Assembly (NCBI GenBank): GCA_043673925.1
Contig: JBIMKC010000004.1
Span: 1 to 44,901 of the forward strand
Source: Chromatiales bacterium
GTDB taxonomy: Bacteria; Pseudomonadota; Gammaproteobacteria; JACCXJ01
Reading direction: 5' to 3'
DNA: 44,901 nt
The first letter of the stretch is position 1. Each line of letters begins with the position of its first letter. This document shows positions 128 to 41,622 of the stretch, in pieces. Under the pieces are notes generated by a model, which made no database searches, had not been told where the DNA came from, and worked only from the letters and a program-made list of their open reading frames with translations. The position numbers and the translations under genes were made by a program.

Positions 128-1573
128 TCATAACGCCGATTCCGCGGCCAGCTCCCCTACGCGAACGATCTTCATGCCGTTGGTTCCACCTTGTTTACCG
201 CGCAAATCACCTTTGGTAATGACTACGATGTCTTCTTCGTGTACCGCGCCGCGCTCGAGCAGGATGTCGATCATTTCACGGTTGACGCGCAGGAAATCGG
301 TGTGCGTGACGTCGAAATCGATCGGGTAGACGCCCCGGTACAGCGTCACCCGCCTGAGCGTCTCGGGACGGCGGGTGAAGGCGAAGATCGGGATCCCGGT
401 GAGCACGCGCGACATCCATATGCCGGTGGCGCCGGTCTCAGTGAGCGCGAGAATGGCTTTGGCGCCGATATGGTTGGCCGCGTAGACCGTGGACATGGCG
501 ATCGCTTCATCGATGCGGTCGAAAGCCGAATCGATGCGGTAGTCGGCACCCCGGAGGCCCCACTGGGTTTCCGTCTCCAAGCAGATCCGATCCATCGCCT
601 CGACGGCTTTGCGCGGGTACTTGCCCACGCTGGTTTCGGCGGAGAGCATGACGGCATCCGTGCCGTCCAACACGGCATTGGCGACGTCGAAGACTTCGGC
701 CCGTGTCGGGATCTGGTTTTCGATCATCGACTCCATCATCTGCGTGGCCGTGATGACCAGGCGGTTCTCGTTACGGGCTTGCTGGATCAAGCGTTTCTGG
801 ACCGGGGGGAGGGCCGCATCCCCGATCTCGACGCCGAGATCGCCGCGCGCGATCATGATCCCGTTCGAGGCCCGCAGGATCTCATCGATACACTGTAAGG
901 CTTCGGCGCGCTCGACCTTGGCGATGACGCCGCAGTTTCCGTTGCTCTCGGCAATCAAACGGCGGGCTTCCTCGATGTCGGCGGCATTGCGCGGAAAGGA
1001 TACGGCGATGTAGTCGGCGCCGATGCCCACGGCGTGGCGGATATCCGCGCGGTCCTTGGAAGTCAGCGCGCCCGCCGAGAGCCCGCCGCCGGCCCGGTTC
1101 AAACCCTTGCTGTCGGAGAGCCCGCCGCCCACCCGCACCACGCATTCGACGCCGGTCCCCATGACGCGCTTGACTTCAAGCGCGATACGGCCATCGTCAA
1201 TGAACAAGGTGTCGCCGCGCTTGACATCTTTCGGGAGATCCGCGTAGGTAACTCCGACGCGGCGTTCATCTCCGTCCGCGGGCGGGATGGCGGTGTCGAG
1301 CGTGAAGGAGGCCCCTTCCCGCAGTTCCACACAGCCGCCGCGGAATCGCTGGATGCGGATCTTCGGGCCTTGCAGATCGGCGATGGCGCCGACCTGCGTG
1401 CCGCGCACCTGGGAGCAGGCCCGCAGTTGGTCGATCCGGCGTTTATGGCTGTCGTGGGAGCCGTAGGAGTAGTTTAGCCGGATGACATCCACCCCGGCCG
1501 CGATGAGGCCATCGAGCACCTTGGGATCGTCGGTAGCCGGGCCGAGGGTGGCAACGATTTTCGTTCTGCGCAT
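128..1573 (-). CDS. pyk: Pyruvate kinase
   Basis: 481-aa ORF starting MRRTKIVATLGPATDDPKVL..., with pyruvate kinase motifs throughout (IIAKVER, MIARGDLGVEI, MLSAETSVGKYP). Confidence 0.95.
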   Translation of the reverse strand: MRRTKIVATLGPATDDPKVLDGLIAAGVDVIRLNYSYGSHDSHKRRIDQLRACSQVRGTQVGAIADLQGPKIRIQRFRGGCVELREGASFTLDTAIPPADGDERRVGVTYADLPKDVKRGDTLFIDDGRIALEVKRVMGTGVECVVRVGGGLSDSKGLNRAGGGLSAGALTSKDRADIRHAVGIGADYIAVSFPRNAADIEEARRLIAESNGNCGVIAKVERAEALQCIDEILRASNGIMIARGDLGVEIGDAALPPVQKRLIQQARNENRLVITATQMMESMIENQIPTRAEVFDVANAVLDGTDAVMLSAETSVGKYPRKAVEAMDRICLETETQWGLRGADYRIDSAFDRIDEAIAMSTVYAANHIGAKAILALTETGATGIWMSRVLTGIPIFAFTRRPETLRRVTLYRGVYPIDFDVTHTDFLRVNREMIDILLERGAVHEEDIVVITKGDLRGKQGGTNGMKIVRVGELAAESAL

Positions 1574-1644: not shown

Positions 1645-2850
1645 TTAATAACCCTCGCTCGGATGCACGTAATCGGGATGGGCGCGGGCGCGCTCTTGCA
1701 GGATGGCGACAGCAGGTAGGGTTTTTCCCTCGAGAAACTCCAGGAACGCCCCCCCGCCGGTGGATATATAGGACAGCCGCTCGGCCACCCCGTACTTCGC
1801 GATGGCCGCGAGCGTCTCGCCGCCGCCGGCGAGGGAATAAGCTTGGCTCGCGGCTATCGCCATCGCGACCGCCCGCGTCCCCTGGCCGAATTGGTCAAAT
1901 TCAAACACCCCGAGCGGGCCATTCCAGACGATCGTTTGAGCCTGTCCAAGCAACGCGGTGTAGCGCCCCGCGGTGCGGGGACCGACATCCAGGATGAGAT
2001 CGCCGGCTGCGACATCGGAAATATTCTTTACCGTGGCCGTCGCGGTTTCGGAAATCTCCCGGGCGCAGACCACGTCCTCGGCCAAGGGGATAGCCGCGCC
2101 GCGCGCGGCTGCCCGCCCGAGAAGCCGCGAGGCTACCTCGACCAAGGGATCTTCAACCAGGGACTTACCGACTGCACGGCCCGCGGCGCGAAGGCACGTA
2201 TTGAGGATCCCGCCGCCGACAATGAGCTGATCCACGGTCTCGACCAGCGATTCGAGTAGCGCGAGCTTGGTCGAAATCTTCGACCCGCCCACAATCGCCA
2301 CCAGGGGGCGTGCCGGTTGTTTCAAGGCTTGGCTCAAGGCATCGATCTCGGCCTCGAGCAGCGGCCCGGCACAGACCTGGGGAGCGTACTTGGCGATCCC
2401 GTGGGTCGACGCCTCGGCACGATGGGCCGTGCCAAAGGCATCATTCACGTACACATCGCAAAGCACCGCTATTTTTCTGGCCAAGGCGTCGTCGTTATTT
2501 TTCTCGCCGATCTCGAAGCGCACGTTTTCGCATAGAGCCGCTTGGCCGGGTTCGACGCTGACGCCACTGATCCAATCTTTAACCAGCGCGATGTCTCGAT
2601 GCAGCAACTCGGATAAGCGGGTAGCGACCGGTGCCAAGCTCAGCGCCGCGTCGTACTGGCCTTCTTTCGGGCGGCCTAGATGCGAGACAAGCATTACCCG
2701 GGCGCCCGCCGACAAAGCCTTGCTGATGGTAGGGAGCGCTGCCCGCAAGCGTGTGTCATCGAGGATCCGGCCCGCTTGGATCGGTACGTTGAAGTCTTCC
2801 CGGATCAACACCCGTTTCCCGGCAAGGCTCAGATCGGACATCGACATCAT
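1645..2850 (-). CDS. pgk: Phosphoglycerate kinase
   Basis: 401-aa ORF with [28 protein letters not shown] and [14 protein letters not shown] motifs typical of PGK. Confidence 0.97.
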
Positions 2851-2865
2851 GGACGGAATCGGTCC

Positions 2866-3876
2866 TTACTTGGCGTTCATCAGGGCGATCGTGACGTCCA
2901 ACATGCGGTTGGAAAAGCCCCATTCGTTATCGTACCAGGACAAGACTTTGACCAGTGTGCCTTCGATGACACGGGTCTGGGTGGCATCGTAAATGGACGA
3001 GGCGGGGTGGTGATTGAAATCGACCGAGACCAGCGGCTTGTCGTTATACTCCAGAAGTCCCTTGAGCTCGCCTTGGGCGGCCTCTCTCAATACCGCATTG
3101 ATCTCCTCCTTGCTGGTCTCGCGCGCGGCGACGAAGCTGAGATCCACCAACGATACGTTGAGCGTGGGGACGCGCACGGCGTAACCGTCCAGTTTTCCGT
3201 TCAACTCGGGAAGCACCAAGCCGACGGCCGCGGCCGCGCCTGTCTTGGTCGGGATCATGGACTGCGTCGCGGACCGCGCCCGGCGCAGATCGCTATGGTA
3301 GACGTCGATCAATACCTGATCATTGGTGAAGGAATGGATCGTGGTCATGATGCCGCGCAGAATACCGATGCGCTCATGCAGCGGCTTCACCAAGGGCGCG
3401 AGGCAGTTGGTCGTGCAAGACGCATTGGAGATCACCGTGTCGCTCGCTTTTAGGGTCTGATGATTCACGCCATAGACGATCGTGGCGTCGACCTCGGTCC
3501 CCGGAGCCGAGATGATGACCTTTCTGGCGCCTGCTTTGAGGTGGGCGCCGGCCTTGGCCTTAGTGGTAAAAAGTCCGGTGCATTCGAGGACCACATCGAC
3601 ACCGAGCCGGGCCCAGGGGAGCTTGGCGGGATCGCGCTCGGCGAGAATGCGGATAGGATCGCCGTCGACCACCATCGACTGGTCCGTGACCGTGATCTCG
3701 CCCGGAAAGCGCCCGTGGACGCTATCGTAGCGGGTTAAATGCGCGTTGGTCGCGACATCACCGAGATCGTTGATCGCGAGGATTTGGATCTCCTGAGTCC
3801 GCCGCGACTCATAGAGCGCGCGCAGAATATTGCGGCCGATACGGCCGTAGCCATTGATTCCAACCTTTATTGCCAT
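2866..3876 (-). CDS. gap: Glyceraldehyde-3-phosphate dehydrogenase
   Basis: 336-aa ORF starting [16 protein letters not shown], with active-site [12 protein letters not shown] and [17 protein letters not shown] lies upstream. Confidence 0.97.
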
Positions 3877-4010
3877 CTATCTCTCCAATTGGCGCCCGGG
3901 TGCCCGGACTTGGCTTTCTGGACCGCGTCCATCGCCAAGGCGCGTATGGCGTTGGCAAGCTCTTTCCGTCGCAGTGGGTAGTTTTCCTTGAGCTTCGTCG
4001 GTGCTCTCAT
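3867..4010 (-). pseudogene. tkt: Transketolase 5' remnant (47-codon stub; tkt similarity covers codons 1-40 at 3891-4010, then reads into the gap start region)
   Basis: Hand translation gives [73 protein letters not shown] is near-identical to the TktA N-terminus. Similarity stops 14 nt before the gap ATG. The stop TAA at 3869-3867 overlaps gap. Confidence 0.8.
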
Positions 4011-4024
4011 GGTTTCTCGTGCGG

Positions 4025-4582
4025 TTAATCCTTGGACCATTTTATCGAACAGCCCATGCTCGCGATCTGATCCCGAGGTCCGTGCCCGGTGCGAGCGATC
4101 TGGACCATGGCCTCGAACAGCTCGCGCCGAGCGCCCGGTGCAGCGGCTTCCCGTTTGCTATCATCGAGGCGGCCGCGATACTGCAAACGCAACTCCGCGT
4201 TATAACCGAAGAAATCCGGGGTGCACACCGCTCCGTAAGCCTTGGCCACCGCTTGGGTACTATCGATCAAATACGGGAACGGATACGCGAAACGCTTGGC
4301 CGTTTCTACCATGTTTTCAAACCTATCTTCCGGATAATCGGTGGGATCGTTGGGCATGACGGCCACGCTTCTTATACCGTGGTCCAAAAGCTCCCGGGTA
4401 GCGCGTACCATGCGCTCTTGGATGGCTTGAACGTAGGGACAATGGTTGCAAATAAACATCACTAAGGCGCCGTTGTCGCCCTTGCATTGTTGCAAGGTCC
4501 AGGTCTTGCCGTCGATTCCAAGCAGGGCAAAATCGACCGCCGGAGTGTCGAATGCACAGATCGGGGTGCTCAGGAGTGCCAT
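4025..4582 (-). CDS. Thioredoxin-fold protein (AhpC/TSA / redoxin-like thiol-disulfide oxidoreductase)
   Basis: 185-aa ORF with a CNHCPYV (CxxC) motif in a thioredoxin-like context ([19 protein letters not shown]) and no signal peptide. Confidence 0.75.
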
Positions 4583-4782
4583 GCTAGGTTATGCCTGGAA
4601 CTATACATATGTCATAAATCTTGCTTTGCGAGCGGATTGGTTCGCGCGGCCAACGTAAAACTACCGTCATTCCTCGAGGGCGTCCCCAGTTTGAAGGCGG
4701 GGATGTTAGCTGTTAATCCTCGATTTATAAAGTAAACTGATGCACTTTTCCCAGCACATTAAAATTCCCACGAGAAGATATC

Positions 4783-5982
4783 ATGGACAATACCCGCTTG
4801 TTTACTTCCGAGTCAGTCTCCGAGGGTCACCCCGACAAGATCTGTGATCAGATCTCCGATGCGGTGCTCGATGCGATCATCGCGCAGGAACCGGACGCGC
4901 GCGTGGCGTGCGAAACGCTGGTCACGACCGGCTTAGTGACCGTGGCGGGAGAAATATCCACCTCTTCCTACGTGGATATCCGCAACGTCGCCCGGCAGGT
5001 TATCCGTGATATCGGGTACGATAGCTCGGAGATGGGGTTCGATTGGGAGTCCTGCGGCGTCATCGTCTCCATAGGACAACAATCGGCGGATATCGCCCTC
5101 GGCGTCAACGAAAGCGGCGCGCACGAACAAGGCGCGGGCGACCAGGGATTGATGTTCGGATATGCCTGCAACGAAACCGACGTGCTCATGCCGGCGCCCA
5201 TCACCTACGCGCACCGCCTGGTCCGGCGGCAAGCCGAAGTCCGCAAGACGGGCCGCCTGCCCTGGCTGCGCCCGGATGCCAAGAGCCAGGTGACGTTTCG
5301 CTACGCGAATGGCCGTCCCTGCGGCATCGACGCCGTGGTCCTCTCGACCCAGCATAGCCCCGAGATCAGCCATGAGGTCCTCAAACAGGCCGTCATGGAT
5401 GAGATCGTGCTTCCGGTGCTGCCGAAGGAGTGGCTAAGCCCTACGACCCGATTCTTTGTCAATCCGACCGGCCGCTTCGTGATCGGCGGGCCCATGGGTG
5501 ACTGTGGGCTGACCGGGCGCAAGATCATCGTCGATACCTATGGCGGCATGGCGCGCCACGGGGGCGGCGCGTTTTCGGGCAAGGACCCTTCCAAAGTAGA
5601 CCGCTCGGCCGCCTACGCGGCGCGTTACGTGGCGAAAAACATCGTGGCCGCGGGCCTCGCCGATCGCTGTGAGATCCAACTATCCTATGCCATCGGCGTG
5701 GCGGAGCCGACATCGATCAGCATCGAGACCTTTGGTACGGGCAACGTGGACGAGTCGAGGTTGATCGCGGCGGTGCGCAAGAATTTCGATCTGCGGCCCA
5801 AGGGGATCATCAAGATGTTGAACCTCTTGCGCCCGATCTACCGGCAGACCGCCGCTTATGGGCATTTCGGCCGCACCGAGTTCGATCTCACTTGGGAGCG
5901 CACCGATAAGGTTGATGCCTTGCGCGAGAGCCTCGGGATAGCCGAATCGATGCCGCGCGAGGCATTGGTCCGGGCGAGTTAG
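4783..5982 (+). CDS. metK: S-adenosylmethionine synthetase
   Basis: 399-aa ORF starting [24 protein letters not shown], with [12 protein letters not shown] and [19 protein letters not shown]. Confidence 0.98.
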
Positions 5983-6014
5983 TTTTCTACCCTACATATA
6001 TCAGGAGTCGATTT

Positions 6015-7328
6015 ATGAGCACGCAACCGATGGAAAAGATCACGCCGGATTACAAGGTAACGGATCTCAAGCTCGCCGAATGGGGGCGCAAGGAGATCAA
6101 CATCGCCGAAGGGGAAATGCCGGGCCTGATGGCCTTGCGGGAAGAATACCAGGGTAAAAAGCCGTTGGCGGGGGCCCGCATCGCGGGCTGTCTGCACATG
6201 ACCGTGCAGACGGCGGTGTTAATCGAGACCTTGATCCAGTTGGGCGCCGAGGTGCGGTGGTCATCCTGTAACATCTTCTCGACCCAAGATCATGCCGCCG
6301 CCGCCGTGGCGGCCGCGGGTATTGCTGTCTTCGCGTGGAAAGGGGAGACGGAACAGGAGTTCTGGTGGTGCATCGAGCAGAGTATTTTCGGCCCCGGCGG
6401 CTGGCGCCCGAATATGCTGCTCGACGATGGCGGAGATCTGACCCAGGTGATGCATGAGCGTTATCCGGAGATGCTCCAAGAGGTGCGTGGTTTGTCGGAA
6501 GAGACGACGACCGGCGTGCGGCGCTTGTATGAAATGGCAAAGACCGGCGCGCTGAAGGTGCCAGCGTTTAATGTCAATGATTCGGTCACGAAATCCAAGT
6601 TCGATAACCTCTACGGTTGCCGGGAATCCTTGATGGATGGTCTAAAGCGGGCCACGGGGGTGATGATCGCAGGCAAGATCGCCGTGGTGCTTGGCTATGG
6701 CGATGTCGGCAAAGGCTGCGCTCAGGCCTTGAAGGGTCTCGGCGCGACCGTCTGGATAGCGGAGATCGATCCCATCTGCGCGCTGCAGGCGGCGATGGAG
6801 GGGTATCGGGTGGTGCGCATGAACGATGTCGCGGCGCGCGGGGACATTTTCGTCACCGCCACGGGCAACATCCGAGTGATCACCCACGATCACATGCGGG
6901 CCATGAAAGACCAGACCATCGTGTGCAATATCGGCCATTTCGACTCCGAGATCGACGTCGCTTCGTTGCGCCAGTACCGATGGGACAACGTCAAACCGCA
7001 GGTGGATCAGATCCTGTTTCCCGATGGCAAGCGCATCATCCTTCTGGCCGAGGGCCGCTTGGTCAATCTGGGTTGCGCCGCGGGGCATCCGAGCTTCGTC
7101 ATGTCAGCGTCGTTTAGCAACCAAGTGCTGGCGCAGATCGAGCTCTGGAACAACTTTAAAAGCTACCAGAACCGCGTCTATACACTGCCCCAGCACCTTG
7201 ATGAAAAGGTGGCGCGCCTGCACCTGGCGAAAGTCGGTGCGGACCTCACGGTGCTCACCCAAGAGCAGGCGGAGTATATCGGTGTCTCGATCGAAGGGCC
7301 TTACAAACCAGAATATTATCGCTATTAA
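6015..7328 (+). CDS. ahcY: Adenosylhomocysteinase
   Basis: 437-aa ORF with [38 protein letters not shown] and [10 protein letters not shown] (NAD site). SD AGGAG lies upstream. Confidence 0.97.
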
Positions 7329-34062: not shown

Positions 34063-34647
34063 ATGTTGTATGCAGTAAAAAACTTCGTCGATACGCTGGC
34101 TGGGATCACTCGGCTTGAGAAAGGTCCTCAGCACCTTCCAACCTCGTATGCGTTGCTGATCACGAGCGTCCTTGTCTACACGCTTACGCGCTTCGGCGTC
34201 TATATCTACAAAGTGCCGATCGGATCCGCGGCGATCATGGGATTAGCCGATACCGCGATTACGGTGGGGATCATCGTATTGTTGCTCGCGGTGCGCGGAG
34301 TGACGTTCCGAGCCCCCCAAATGCTCACAGCTTTTACCAGCATCGCCTCGGGATTTGGGTGGGCCGTCATTTTCTCGCTGGGGCTGATCAGTTTGATACC
34401 AGACGTCCCGATGGTGCAGGGTTTTAGAAACGTCGTGATTTTTCCGCTCGTTCTCGTTAACGTCGTGATCAACGGCCACTTGTTTCGGGCGTCGCTGACG
34501 ACGAATCTCGCCACCGGGGTCCTCATCTCATTGGTGTTATTATTCACCGTCACCAACGTGACCGACCGCTTCGATCCGACGCTGGAACGTACGGGAGCGG
34601 GCTCGGCGCGCATGACTCCCTCCCCACAGACGACACCCGAGCGCTAA
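34063..34647 (+). CDS. Hypothetical polytopic inner-membrane protein (about 5 TM helices)
   Basis: 194-aa ORF with SD GAGGA upstream, several hydrophobic 20-aa stretches and a polar Pro/Thr-rich tail. No family recognised. Confidence 0.5.
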   Translation: MLYAVKNFVDTLAGITRLEKGPQHLPTSYALLITSVLVYTLTRFGVYIYKVPIGSAAIMGLADTAITVGIIVLLLAVRGVTFRAPQMLTAFTSIASGFGWAVIFSLGLISLIPDVPMVQGFRNVVIFPLVLVNVVINGHLFRASLTTNLATGVLISLVLLFTVTNVTDRFDPTLERTGAGSARMTPSPQTTPER

Positions 34648-39058: not shown

Positions 39059-41622
39059 CTATTCCACCAGCGCGCGCAAGCGGTAAATCTCTTCCAAGGC
39101 TCGCCGCGGGCTTAAGCCATCGGGATCTAAGGCGCGCAGCACCGTGAGGGCTGGCGGTTCCGCGACCTCATCGAATAACTCCATCTGTGGCGCGGACGGT
39201 TGAGGCGTCTCCAACCGTCGCCGCCGTTCCAGCCGCTGCAGCTTGTCCCGGGCACGGCTTACCACGGCGCCGGGGACTCCCGCCATCCGCGCCACCTGCA
39301 GTCCGTAGCTTTGATTTGCCGGGCCCTCTTGCACCGAGTGCAGAAAGACGAGCCGATCACCGTGTTCCACAGCATCAAAATGCACATTCGCAACTCCTTC
39401 CATTTCGACGGCCAACTCCGTTAACTCGAAATAATGCGTCGCGAACAGCGTATAGGCGCGTATTTCCCGCGCTAAGTGTTCGGCGGTCGCCCACGCGAGC
39501 GACAGACCGTCGAAGGTGCTGGTGCCCCGTCCGATCTCATCGATCAAGACCAAGCTCTGCGAGGTCGCGTTGTTGAGAATGTTAGCGGTTTCGGTCATTT
39601 CGACCATGAACGTGGAACGTCCACTCGCCAAATCATCCGCCGCGCCGATGCGCGTAAAGACGCGATCCAACGGACCAATTTTCGCCTTCGCGGCCGGAAC
39701 GTAACTCCCGCTGTAGGCGAGGATCACGATCAACGCCGTCTGCCGCATATAGGTCGATTTCCCGCCCATGTTCGGGCCGGTGATCATCAACATGCGCCGC
39801 TCATCGGCGAGGTGAAGATCATTGGGCACAAAAGGCGTCTCGTGGACCCGTTCGATCACCAGGTGCCGGCCGCCGTCGATCGACACCCCGCTGTCGCCGC
39901 AGAGCTCCGGGGCGTTCAGAGCGAGCGTCTCGGCTCGTTCGGCAAACGACGCGAATACATCGGCTTCGGCCACGGCGGCGCTCGCTGCCTGCAACAACGG
40001 CAGTTGTTGAATCAAGCGCGTAAGGATCTCTTGGTAAATTTCTTTTTCCTTGTCGAGCGCCCGCTGTCCCGCCCGGAGCGCCTCGGATTCAAGCGCGGCC
40101 AGTTCCGGCGTGATATACCTTTCCGCCGCCTTGAGCGTCTGCCTGCGCACGTAATCCGCCGGGATTTTCTGCTGATGAGCCCGGCCGATCTCGAGGTAAT
40201 AGCCGTGCACGCGGTTGTAGCCGACCCGGAGGTTCCCGATGCCCGTGCGTTCGCGCTCGCGGGCTTCGATCGCAACCAGCACCTGCCCGACGTCATCGCG
40301 CAAACGCCGCAATTCGTCGAGCTCGCGATCGTAACCCGTCGCGATGACACCGCCATCGTTTATATGGGCGGCGGGATCCTCCGCGATGGCCGCCTGGAGT
40401 AAGGTGCGCTGCTCGGGGAATCCCGCGATCGCTTGGGCGAGCGATTGCAGCCTGGGACTGTCGATCTCATCGAGCCGGCGGCTCAATTCGGGTAAGGCTT
40501 CGAGCGCGTTCCGGAGCTGAACGAGGTCCCGAGGACGCGCCGACCGAAGCGCGATGCGGGCCAGTATGCGTTCGATATCCCCGATCGCCCGCAGCGGCTG
40601 CCGCAATCCGTGCCAAAGGGCGTTCATCAGCAGGGCGCCGATCGCGTGATAACGCTGCCGGAGCGTGGCTTGGTCGCGGATCGGGCGATTCAACCAACGC
40701 CGCAACATGCGGCTGCCCATGGGCGTCACCGAGCTATCCATGATCCCGATGAGGCTGTGCTCCTTGGCTCCGAAAAGGCTGGCGTTTATTTCCAGATTGC
40801 GGCGCGTCGCGGCATCGAGGATCAGGCTCTCTTCCCGCCGTTCCACGCAGAGCTTGCATAAATGCGGCAAGGCGGTGCGTTGGGTATCTCGCGTGTATTG
40901 CAACAGCCACCGGCCGCCGCCAAGGCGGCGTCCAGGTCCTCGCACCCGAACCCCGCCAGGTCTTGGACTTCAAACTGCTGGGCTAATGCGCGTTTGGCGT
41001 GCTCTGTGTCGAAATGCCAAGGCGGCCGCCGGCGCAGGCGTGGGTCCGCGGTAAACCACGGCACGAGATCGGACGCTTCGCTTAAGAGCAACTCCGCGGG
41101 CTGCAGCCGCTCGATCTCGCCGCCAAGCGCCTCGCGCCCCGTGATTTCGAGGACGCTGAACCTGCCGCTGGCGAGGTCCAACGTGGCAAGGCCGATGCAC
41201 TCCCCTTGCGCGTGCACCGCCGCCAGCAGGTTGTCGCGGCGTTCTTCGAGCAACGCCTCCTCGGTCAGGGTTCCCGGGGTTACGATACGCGTGACGCGCC
41301 GTTCCATCGGCGCTTTGCCCGACTGCTCGCCCACTTGGTCGCAAATCGCGACTGAGTACCCCATACGCACGAGCTTGGCCAAGTACGAATCCACCGCATG
41401 CACGGGCACGCCCGCCATCGGGATAGGCGCCCCGGCCGAGATCCCGCGCGTGGTCAGGACAATGTCCAGTAAGCCCGCGGCTTTCTCGGCGTCGTCATAA
41501 AATAGCTCGTAGAAATCGCCCATGCGGTAGAATAAAAGCATCTCCGGGAAGTCCCCCTTGATGCCGAGGAATTGCCTCATCATGGGCGTATGTTCGCCGC
41601 CGCGATCCGCGCTCGCCGCCAT
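39059..41622 (-). pseudogene. mutS: DNA mismatch repair protein MutS, split by a 1-nt frameshift near 40904-40912
   Basis: ORF 40822-41622 encodes the N-terminus ([17 protein letters not shown]). ORF 39059-40945 encodes the rest ([41 protein letters not shown]). The frames switch within GCCGGTGGCTGTTGC (AAAG / LLQY). The span is 2564 nt, one short of a multiple of 3. Confidence 0.85.

What the first reader, a model, noticed from the sequence alone, without database searches (positions are those of the whole stretch)
3867..4010. Transketolase reduced to a 47-codon stub joined directly to the gap ribosome-binding site
The 148-nt 'intergenic' gap upstream of gap is actually coding. The reverse strand from ATG 4010 reads [40 protein letters not shown], then NWRDRWQ and a stop. 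Residues 15-40 nearly match the invariant TktA N-terminus (E. coli [34 protein letters not shown]). Similarity ends abruptly at 3890/3891, right where the gap SD (GGAGAG) begins, and the stop (3869-3867) overlaps the gap ATG (3876-3874). About 620 codons of tkt therefore appear to have been cleanly deleted from a canonical tkt-gap-pgk-pyk-fba cluster. The start codon and upstream context remain, 14 nt after the thioredoxin-like gene. The stub may now act as an upstream ORF translationally coupled to gap. The supplied ORF track misses it because it is under 60 aa.
Basis: partly seen in the sequence, partly recalled or inferred. Interest (0 to 1): 0.65.

Follow-up and report, generated by a model that had tools for sequence, protein, structure and literature searches.

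The report
Transketolase gene remnant upstream of gap
In this cave methane-oxidising bacterium (USC-gamma / wb1-P19 group), a real 2-kb deletion has cut the transketolase gene in front of the glycolytic gap operon down to a 40-codon leftover; it is an ordinary dead gene fragment, but the same gene has been deleted independently, in different ways, in many close relatives.

Summary
The minus-strand ORF 4010..3867 reads MRAPTK…KSGHPGA|NWRDRWQ*. Residues 15-40 match transketolase: Pfam E=8e-8, and 25 of 26 residues identical to E. coli TktA.

The deletion reading is supported. A relative with about 95% DNA identity (L094) is colinear with the window over 7.3 kb. It carries redoxin, a 680-aa tkt, gap, pgk, pyk and fba. 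The window lacks exactly 2,069 bp of it, with the breakpoint at 3892|3891.

The junction is not an assembly artefact. An independent 60-nt unitig in the source run spans it at 137x, against 158-200x in the flanks.

The organism belongs to the USC-gamma atmospheric methanotroph clade. Within that clade this tkt is intact in some lineages. In others it has been removed by at least six different, non-nested deletion alleles, even between strains with 99.3% identical gap genes.

A published USC-gamma MAG annotation lists two other tkt genes, so this copy is probably redundant.

The idea of a coupled upstream ORF is not supported by conservation across alleles.

Verdict: a recent, non-functional gene remnant. 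Interest is moderate and comes only from the recurrent loss in a group whose carbon assimilation is unresolved.

The parts
3892..4010 (-). Remnant of tkt: the native start codon, codons 1-39 and two bases of codon 40 (MRAPTK...KSGHPG[A]).
   Evidence: Translation. Pfam, NCBIfam and PDB matches. 91.6% nt identity to the 5' end of the intact tkt of L094, with residues 18-40 identical.
3891..3892 (.). Deletion junction. 3892 is the last tkt base and 3891 is the first base of the retained tail of the tkt-gap spacer.
   Evidence: blastn against L094 (window 7336-3892 = L094 363-3810; window 3891-1 = L094 5880-9706) and against L092. The X1 unitig 3862-3921 at depth 137.5 has no mismatch.
3867..3891 (-). 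Tail of the stub ORF (NWRDRWQ*). It is read out of frame from the last 15 nt of the old tkt-gap spacer and the first 10 nt of gap. It is not tkt-derived.
   Evidence: Sequence. The same spacer...GGCTTAATCAATTGGAGAGATAGATG, follows intact or C-terminal tkt remnants in L092, L087 and L082.
3881..3886 (-). Shine-Dalgarno-like GGAGAG of gap, 4 nt before the ATG, kept intact by the deletion.
   Evidence: Sequence. Conserved in the clade alleles read and in L001; L081 reads GGAGAA. Function inferred.
2866..3876 (-). gap (type I glyceraldehyde-3-phosphate dehydrogenase, 336 aa).
   Evidence: Pfam Gp_dh_N and Gp_dh_C. 94-99% identical proteins in USC-gamma MAGs.
1645..2850 (-). pgk (phosphoglycerate kinase).
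   Evidence: Pfam PGK, E=4e-138.
128..1573 (-). pyk (pyruvate kinase). The class I fba that follows it in relatives lies beyond the window end.
   Evidence: Pfam PK and PK_C. fba lies downstream in L082, L087 and L094.
4011..4024 (-). Native 14-nt spacer between the redoxin stop and the tkt start.
   Evidence: L094 has the same arrangement, where the tkt start is GTG.
4025..4582 (-). AhpC/TSA-redoxin family gene (185 aa). It is the first gene of the string and is intact here.
   Evidence: Pfam AhpC-TSA and Redoxin. Orthologues sit in the same position in L086, L087 and L094.
4583..4782 (.). Divergent intergenic region between metK (+) and the redoxin gene (-). It is the presumed site of the promoter that now drives redoxin-stub-gap-pgk-pyk.
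   Evidence: Inference only. The consensus scan found no sigma-70-like site and no terminator-like site between redoxin and gap.

Best explanation
The 3867-4010 ORF is a non-functional leftover of a transketolase gene (tkt).

**Origin.** In the recent ancestor the order was metK<- ->redoxin-tkt-gap-pgk-pyk-fba. A deletion of about 2 kb, with no microhomology at the final junction, removed tkt from the last base of codon 40 onward. It also removed the stop codon and all but the last 15 nt of the tkt-gap spacer. The native start of tkt and the ribosome-binding site of gap were left untouched. The loss may have happened in one step or in two nested steps.

**What the stub is.** It carries only the first helix and the GHPG turn of the thiamine-diphosphate domain, so it cannot be an enzyme.

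**Expression (inferred).** gap-pgk-pyk is now most likely transcribed together with the redoxin gene. If ribosomes start at the old tkt ATG, they would run out of frame through the gap ribosome-binding site and stop 5 nt after the gap ATG. This is a by-product of the deletion, not a selected device.

**Wider pattern.** The event is one instance of recurrent loss. In the USC-gamma / wb1-P19 methanotroph clade this operon-linked tkt is intact in some lineages and has been deleted independently, with different endpoints, in many others. The most likely reason is that it is redundant with other tkt copies in these genomes.

**Shown:** homology, junction, colinearity, allele diversity. **Inferred:** co-transcription, translation of the stub, redundancy in this particular genome.
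For: **Homology of the stub.** Supported.

**Intact syntenic counterparts.**
- L094: tkt of 680 aa scoring 959 bits on TIGR00232.
- L092: full-length tkt with one frameshift.
- L086: outgroup with redoxin-tkt-gap.
- A cluster of 680-697-aa orthologues.

**Colinearity.** The window matches L094 over 7.3 kb with a single 2,069-bp gap, which is 1,942 bp when measured against L092.

**Junction in the source run X1.** A 60-nt unitig at 137.5x spans it, against flanks at 158 and 200x. A 440-nt unitig at 38x shares both flanking 30-mers.

**Different remnant alleles.**
- L081: 61 codons.
- Taylor type (L082-84, L088-90): an N-terminal piece of tkt (about 22 residues aligning to positions 14-35 of the L086 protein) plus the last 22 codons.
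- L087: C-terminal remnant only, although its gap is 99.3% identical to the window's.
- L085 and L093: no tkt at all.
- Further alleles appear in runs X7, X10 and X23.

**Age of the stub.** There is no extra decay in the conserved part of the window stub, which fits a recent event.

**Other tkt copies.** The USC_AKS MAG has K00615 on two other contigs, one beside zwf and tal, while its metK-x-gapA-pgk contig has none (PMC13333085 supplement). Cave MAGs are reported to have a complete pentose phosphate pathway (PMC12871462).
Against: - No other tkt lies in the 44.9-kb window. I could not search the rest of this genome, so redundancy here is inferred from a related MAG.
- Laying X1 contigs on a relative's tkt showed no tkt-like contig at the depth of this genome. 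The method only sees at least 80% DNA identity.
- The stub ORF is open, has its native start and ends next to the gap start. A role in translation therefore cannot be excluded.
- Single-step and stepwise deletion cannot be told apart. Possible intermediates are an L081-type allele, seen in X6, and the 380-nt-longer minor allele in X1.
Confidence: 0.85

Rival explanations
1. Assembly artefact. A full-length tkt is present in the organism, and the assembler collapsed or mis-joined the contig at 3891/3892.
For: - The de Bruijn graph of the source run branches exactly at the junction.
- Other alleles, including longer tkt sequence (…HPGAPMGMADIAEV), join the same flanks in X1, X3, X4, X5 and X6.
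- Elsewhere in the window, around 40889-40909, the consensus disagrees with the dominant X1 unitig. Local consensus errors therefore do occur.
Against: - All 31-mers crossing the junction form a unitig at 137.5x in X1. The only alternative joining the same two 30-mers is at 38x, and the flanks are at 158-200x.
- Independent assemblies from other samples carry sister deletion alleles.
Confidence: 0.03
2. The stub is kept as a functional upstream ORF or leader peptide. Its translation, started at the old tkt ATG and ending inside the gap start region, would couple gap translation to the upstream message.
For: - The native start codon and its context are kept, and the ORF is open.
- The stop lies 5 nt after the gap ATG.
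- L081 and the Taylor-type allele of L082 also have ORFs ending at the same TAA.
- In outgroup L086 tkt and gap overlap (ATGA), and in L092 they are 16 nt apart. Close coupling is therefore ancestral.
Against: - The ORF is not conserved. L088 has a 1-nt insertion that breaks it.
- L087 and L092 have only a 15-codon TTG ORF.
- L085, L093 and L094 lack the TAA, because their gap codon 3 is ATT.
- Any upstream frame meets a stop within a few codons of the gap ATG, so ending there has about a 1 in 3 chance.
- gap keeps its own GGAGAG.
- Stub peptide sequences differ freely between alleles: 9 of 40 residues between the window and L081, including the invariant His.
Confidence: 0.08
3. The organism has truly lost transketolase activity. 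The deletion would then mark a metabolic change, with no non-oxidative pentose phosphate branch and no RuMP- or CBB-type sugar rearrangement.
For: - There is no other tkt in the window.
- No tkt-like contig at this genome's depth was found in X1 at 80% identity or more.
- USC-gamma MAGs lack hps/phi and RuBisCO, and their carbon assimilation is unresolved (PMC13333085, PMC12871462, PMC5589543).
Against: - The USC_AKS MAG has two K00615 genes on other contigs, one in a zwf-tal-…-tkt cluster, and none at the metK-gap locus.
- Cave MAGs are reported to have a complete pentose phosphate pathway.
- Without tkt a free-living bacterium has no standard route to erythrose-4-phosphate (established biochemistry).
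Confidence: 0.08

Closest known systems
Bacterial pseudogene remnants left by deletion (gene erosion under deletional bias)
   Same: - A truncated piece of a known gene sits in its ancestral syntenic position.
- The essential domains are missing.
- An intact orthologue is present in close relatives.
- Sister lineages have different, non-nested deletion endpoints.
   Different: - The remnant still has an open frame with its native start.
- The conserved part shows no detectable decay, so the event looks recent.
- The loss recurs many times within a clade about 95% identical in DNA, which is more than is usual for a housekeeping-type gene.
tkt/cbbT-gap-pgk-pyk-fba clusters of Gamma- and Betaproteobacteria (for example the cbb-linked cbbT…cbbG cbbK cbbA genes of Cupriavidus, or tkt-gap-pgk-pyk-fba of Nitrosococcus-like genomes)
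   Same: Gene order and orientation are the same. About three quarters of 80 GTDB relatives have tkt directly upstream of gap. Outgroups L001 and L086 and in-clade L094 show the full cluster.
   Different: Here tkt is reduced to 40 codons. No RuBisCO or hps/phi is reported in this clade (literature), so the cluster no longer serves a CBB or RuMP cycle.
Translationally coupled upstream ORFs and leader peptides (overlapping stop-start arrangements such as ATGA or TAATG)
   Same: The ORF stop lies within a few nucleotides of the downstream start codon, on the same strand, with no terminator between them.
   Different: - The stop lies after the start, giving a 10-nt overlap.
- The downstream gene has its own ribosome-binding site.
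- The ORF is not conserved across alleles.
- There is no evidence of translation.
MITE/IS-associated deletion hot spots
   Same: Relatives carry a MITE of about 147 bp (inverted ends GGAAGCTCTGCAAAAG … CTTTTGCAGAGYTTCC), or pieces of it, abutting the tkt remnants. Examples are L087 and L081, and by eye the tkt-gap spacer of L094.
   Different: No copy of the element or its ends is present in the window. The window junction shows no microhomology or element scar.

Membership tests
Transketolase (TIGR00232 / Pfam PF00456+PF02779+PF02780) | Sequence homology to the N-terminal thiamine-diphosphate-binding domain | tested here: met
   Pfam E=8e-8, profile positions 2-28 only. TIGR00232 E=8e-7, positions 1-25 of 654. 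25 of 26 residues identical to E. coli TktA residues 4-29.
Transketolase (TIGR00232 / Pfam PF00456+PF02779+PF02780) | Full three-domain architecture of about 660-690 aa, scoring above the family cut-off | tested here: not met
   The stub has 47 aa and scores 27.8 bits against a cut-off of 682. There is no Transket_pyr or Transketolase_C domain. The intact counterpart in L094 scores 959 bits.
Transketolase (TIGR00232 / Pfam PF00456+PF02779+PF02780) | ThDP/metal-binding motif (GDG…N) and the catalytic residues beyond the first His | tested here: not met
   The sequence stops at GHPGA. The GDGCLMEG and HDSIGLGEDGPTHQ motifs seen in L094 and L092 lie in the deleted part.
Gene remnant produced by deletion (pseudogene fragment) | Intact orthologue at the same syntenic position in close relatives, with flanks colinear across a single gap | tested here: met
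   L094: window 7336-3892 = L094 363-3810 (95.2%), and window 3891-1 = L094 5880-9706 (93.2%). 2,069 bp are missing. Against L092, 1,942 bp are missing.
Gene remnant produced by deletion (pseudogene fragment) | The junction is present in primary data, not only in the assembly | tested here: met
   X1 Logan unitig 3862-3921: depth 137.5, no mismatches. Only contig-level data were available, not single reads.
Translationally coupled upstream ORF / leader peptide | The ORF has a start codon, and its stop is adjacent to or overlaps the downstream start | tested here: met
   ATG at 4010, TAA at 3869-3867, gap ATG at 3876-3874.
Translationally coupled upstream ORF / leader peptide | The ORF, or at least its frame and stop position, is conserved among relatives | tested here: not met
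   It is absent or broken in L085, L087, L088, L092, L093 and L094.
Translationally coupled upstream ORF / leader peptide | Evidence that the ORF is translated and affects the downstream gene | not testable with these tools
   Only contig-level metatranscriptome data exist, and for a different allele. An X27 RNA contig of 3,086 nt carries the remnants in the gap leader.
IS/MITE-mediated adjacent deletion | A mobile element or its terminal repeat lies at the deletion junction | tested here: not met
   No match to the MITE end in the window, even with 3 mismatches allowed. The element is present at or near junctions in L081 and L087.

The most novel reading that the evidence does not exclude
The repeated, independent removal of the operon-linked transketolase in USC-gamma / wb1-P19 atmospheric methanotrophs may not be neutral erosion of a spare copy. 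It could instead be selected, or be the visible tail of the recent dismantling of a sugar-phosphate regeneration module of RuMP or CBB type. That module's key enzymes (hps/phi, RuBisCO) are already missing in this clade. On this reading, the presence or absence of tkt at this locus, intact in some lineages and deleted in at least six ways in others, would mark lineages that differ in central carbon flow. It would also give a datable genomic handle on the unresolved carbon-assimilation route of these organisms.
Probability: 0.15. Interest if true: 0.6.

Novelty: new member of a known kind. Interest (0 to 1): 0.35.

Why it matters
Taken alone, the stub is an ordinary dead gene fragment that annotation pipelines skip because it is short.

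It matters for three reasons.
- It corrects the annotation. The 148-nt "intergenic" stretch is a tkt remnant, and gap has lost its upstream partner.
- It places the window in the USC-gamma / wb1-P19 cave methanotrophs. How these organisms assimilate carbon is an open question (PMC13333085, PMC12871462).
- It shows that a central-metabolism gene at this locus is polymorphic, being intact, frameshifted or deleted in many different ways among very close strains. MAG-based pathway calls of "present" or "absent" for tkt and the pentose phosphate pathway in this group therefore depend on strain and locus and should be checked per copy.

If the recurrent loss turned out to be selected, it would be a clue to how these organisms route carbon.

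Tried and rejected
1. Exact-protein look-ups of the window's redoxin and GAPDH found nothing on record.
2. I laid X1, X3 and X4 contigs on the tkt of L001 to look for a second tkt at this genome's depth. The result was inconclusive. Only fragments at 80% DNA identity or more are seen, and those have depths of 3-36x plus a few higher conserved segments.
I therefore could not read what follows the L081-type junction in other runs.
4. The sigma-70 promoter and terminator scan of 3700-4900 found no promoter-like site and no terminator between redoxin and gap. This is uninformative about the real promoter.
5. An Rfam scan of 3600-4900 found no known RNA element.
6. I considered a MITE-mediated deletion for the window allele. 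I rejected it because neither the element nor its ends are in the window.
7. I considered whether an apparent mutS frameshift pointed to a mutator background. I rejected it because the dominant X1 unitig has the extra G that restores the frame.
8. I considered a conserved upstream ORF ending at the gap start. I rejected it on the allele comparison.
9. The homologue search with the 40-aa stub returned only short proteins. It was still useful, because it found the sister stub P0001.

Full report
**1. The observation**

On the minus strand, an ORF from ATG 4010 reads [47 protein letters not shown] and stops at TAA 3869-3867. The frame is open from ATG 4040.

The genes around it are as follows:
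- gap, 3876-2866
- pgk, 2850-1645
- pyk, 1573-128
- upstream, on the same strand, an AhpC/TSA-redoxin gene, 4582-4025
- divergently, metK and ahcY

The transketolase match is significant despite its length:
- Pfam Transketolase_N gives E=8e-8 and 32 bits against a cut-off of 22, covering profile positions 2-28.
- TIGR00232 gives E=8e-7.
- Residues 15-40 are 25 of 26 identical to E. coli TktA residues 4-29.

A tblastn search with a relative's Tkt finds nothing else in the 44.9-kb window. The rest of the window is ordinary chromosome: metF, nusA-infB-truB-pnp, rimM-trmD, xerD, dsbC, hldE, waaA, mutS and htpG.

**2. Is the junction real?**

The sequence comes from a cave metagenome, and run X1 holds 96% of its words.

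In Logan's independent contigs of X1, the unitigs break exactly at 3891|3892:
- 3711-3891 at 200x
- 3892-4482 at 158x
- a 60-nt unitig, 3862-3921, made of precisely the 31-mers that cross the junction, at 137.5x with no mismatch

A second unitig of 440 nt at 38x starts and ends with the same two 30-mers. About a fifth of the population in that sample therefore carries an allele with 380 more bases at this point.

The assembly thus reports the major allele correctly. As a control on the method, the same approach did expose a disagreement elsewhere (see section 8).

**3. What was there before**

About three quarters of 80 GTDB relatives found through GAPDH have a full tkt immediately upstream of gap.

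A protein search with the window's GAPDH found a tight group of about 35 sequences at 94-99% identity. It includes "Chromatiales bacterium USCg_Taylor". After that group, identity jumps down to 87% and below. The window therefore belongs to USC-gamma, also called wb1-P19 or Ca. Methyloligotrophales. These are the uncultured atmospheric methane oxidisers that dominate many caves (10.1101/2024.08.23.608578, PMC12871462).

The outgroup L086 (87% GAPDH identity) has metK<- ->redoxin-tkt(690 aa)-gap-pgk-pyk.

Inside the clade, L094 has redoxin-tkt-gap-pgk-pyk-fba. Its tkt is 680 aa counted from the start that corresponds to the window's ATG 4010, and it scores 959 bits on TIGR00232.

The window is colinear with L094 over 7.3 kb:
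- window 7336-3892 = L094 363-3810, 95.2% identity
- window 3891-1 = L094 5880-9706, 93.2% identity

The window lacks L094 3811-5879, which is 2,069 bp. Measured against L092, whose tkt-gap spacer is only 16 nt, the loss is 1,942 bp.

The junction reads …CACCCGGGCGC|CAATTGGAGAGATAGATG. The intact gene continues |GCCGATGGGC… (HPGAPMGMA), and the intact spacer ends …TTAAT|CAATTGG. There is no microhomology.

Thirty-nine codons plus two bases of tkt remain. About 640 codons, the stop and most of the spacer are gone. The last 15 nt of the spacer, with GGAGAG, are kept.

The 14-nt distance from the redoxin stop to the tkt start is native, because L094 has the same arrangement.

**4. Not a one-off: many alleles**

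Searching with the stub found P0001, a 68-aa ORF on an independent ENA contig (L081). It retains 61 tkt codons before what may be the same spacer point. It also carries damaging changes: GHPG to GRPG, and PMGM to PMDM.

| Locus | State of the locus |
|---|---|
| Window | Redoxin intact; tkt codons 1-40 only |
| L081 | 61 tkt codons, decayed |
| L082-84, L088-90 (Taylor type) | No redoxin; an N-terminal tkt piece (about 22 residues aligning to positions 14-35 of the L086 protein) joined to the last 22 codons plus the full spacer |
| L087 | Redoxin, a MITE fragment and only the C-terminal about 30 codons of tkt |
| L085 | A broken 5' piece of redoxin joined to the spacer |
| L093 | metK region joined directly to the spacer |
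| L092 | Full-length tkt split by a 1-nt frameshift |

Soil and ice runs show still other junctions.

By gap nucleotide identity, the loci pair up as window with L087 (99.3%), L081 with the Taylor type (98%), and L085 with L093 (96.5%). In the first two pairs the remnants are not nested. The window has only the 5' end, and L087 has only the 3' end. For L085 and L093 nesting is not excluded.

The ancestors of these pairs therefore still had both ends of the gene, and it was deleted independently several times. Exchange of alleles by recombination is an alternative I cannot exclude.

Intact orthologues also exist. One 90% cluster has 19 members, several of them 680-697 aa. The gene is thus polymorphic in the clade.

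The conserved part of the window stub, residues 18-40, is identical to L094. All differences lie in the variable N-terminal extension. This fits a recent deletion.

The window allele could also have arisen in two steps. One route is from an L081-type allele by a 63-nt in-frame loss; that junction type is present in X6. The other route is from the 380-nt-longer allele seen in X1.

**5. Why the gene can be lost**

The published KEGG table of the USC_AKS MAG lists transketolase K00615 on two other contigs, one with zwf and tal. Its metK(_29)-x(_30)-gapA(_31)-pgk(_32) contig has none (PMC13333085 supplement).

The cave MAGs of PMC12871462 are described as encoding a complete pentose phosphate pathway.

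The most likely reading is therefore loss of a redundant, operon-linked copy. I could not verify a second copy in this window's own genome. Laying X1 contigs on a relative's tkt was inconclusive.

USC-gamma genomes lack hps/phi and RuBisCO, and their carbon assimilation is called enigmatic. A tkt attached to gap-pgk-pyk-fba is the kind of copy that serves CBB or RuMP regeneration in relatives. That link is inference.

**6. How the locus probably works now**

- There is no terminator-like site between redoxin and gap, and no sigma-70 consensus match in the region. There is no Rfam element.
- The genes lie 14 nt apart or overlap, so co-transcription of redoxin-stub-gap-pgk-pyk from the metK/redoxin divergent region is the simplest model (inferred).
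- In a true metatranscriptome (X27), a 3,086-nt contig of a Taylor-type allele carries the tkt remnants upstream of gap. Such remnants can therefore sit in the gap mRNA leader. Contigs have no direction or depth resolution, so this evidence is weak.
- The stub would be translated if the native tkt start is still used, and ribosomes would stop 5 nt past the gap ATG.

This arrangement is not conserved:
- L088 breaks the frame.
- L087 and L092 have only a 15-codon TTG ORF.
- L085, L093 and L094 lack the TAA.

Any incoming frame meets a stop within a few codons of the gap ATG, and gap has its own GGAGAG. I therefore regard coupling as a by-product of the deletion, with about 8% probability that it matters.

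**7. Comparison and verdict**

The feature is homologous to transketolase but fails the family's defining features of architecture, score and cofactor motifs. It is a gene remnant, not a member.

It meets the tests for a deletion pseudogene: an intact syntenic orthologue, a single colinear gap, and a junction present in primary data.

It does not meet the conservation test for a leader ORF. It shows no mobile-element scar, although MITEs sit at this locus in relatives.

The four USC-gamma papers whose text or supplements I searched say nothing about this locus, and the main texts of the three I searched contain no mention of transketolase. Literature coverage was limited to open-access text.

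Overall it is a new example of a known kind. Interest is moderate and comes from the recurrent loss in an ecologically important, metabolically unresolved group.

**8. Side check**

The window's mutS appears split by a frameshift near 40905. The dominant X1 unitig, at 96x, has an extra G there plus three substitutions. The frameshift is therefore probably a local consensus error or a minor variant, not a mutator genotype.

Noticed in passing
window 40822-40945 (minus strand), around 40905: mutS is split into two overlapping ORFs: 266 aa with MutS_I and II, and 628 aa with MutS_III-V. This implies a 1-nt frameshift. The dominant unitig of source run X1 (96x) has an extra G behind 40905 and three substitutions (40889, 40894, 40909). 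The frameshift is therefore probably a consensus error or a minor variant.
   Followed up: yes
L088 466-612; L081 about 4443-6073; L087 3324-3383; L089 468-483: A MITE-like element of about 147 bp has inverted ends GGAAGCTCTGCAAAAG … CTTTTGCAGAG(C/T)TTCC. A complete copy lies in the metF|ahcY spacer of L088. Its two ends flank about 1.5 kb of extra genes in L081, just after the redoxin stop. One end plus about 60 nt abuts the tkt C-terminal remnant in L087. It is absent from the window.
   Followed up: partly
window 3891|3892, run X1: A 440-nt unitig at 38x begins and ends with the same 30-mers that flank the junction. A minor allele in the same sample therefore has 380 nt more at this point. 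Its sequence could not be read with the tools.
   Followed up: partly
L092 1425-3484 (GCA_030154905.1): An in-clade full-length tkt is called as two ORFs of 567 and 119 aa. The cause is a 1-nt loss in a C-run (CGGCCCAGGTGATT, where L094 has CCCCAG-like sequence). It may be an early pseudogene or a sequencing error.
   Followed up: partly
L085 4762-4990: The redoxin gene itself is a broken remnant here. About 70 codons remain, with an internal stop or frameshift, joined directly to the gap spacer. Deletions at this locus are not confined to tkt.
   Followed up: partly
L081 596-3762 and 4443-6310: A close relative has about 3.2 kb inserted between metK and redoxin, and about 1.9 kb between redoxin and the tkt stub. 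The inserts hold small genes (one with DUF4177, the others without Pfam hits) and REP-like palindromes (ctccctctcccgccgggagagggttggggtgagggg). L092 shares the REP-like part upstream of its tkt.
   Followed up: partly
L094 5735-5894: The tkt-gap spacer is 160 nt here, against 16 nt in L092. By eye, the extra part resembles the core of the MITE (…CGCGAAGCCGACGAGCGAGCGACGAGACATACC…).
   Followed up: no
L041 5698-5922 (Steroidobacteraceae MAG): Only the last 75 residues or so of Tkt are detectable just upstream of gap in this unrelated MAG. It may be another tkt remnant at the same kind of locus.
   Followed up: no
window 34063-34647 (+): A 194-aa ORF has no Pfam match.
   Followed up: no
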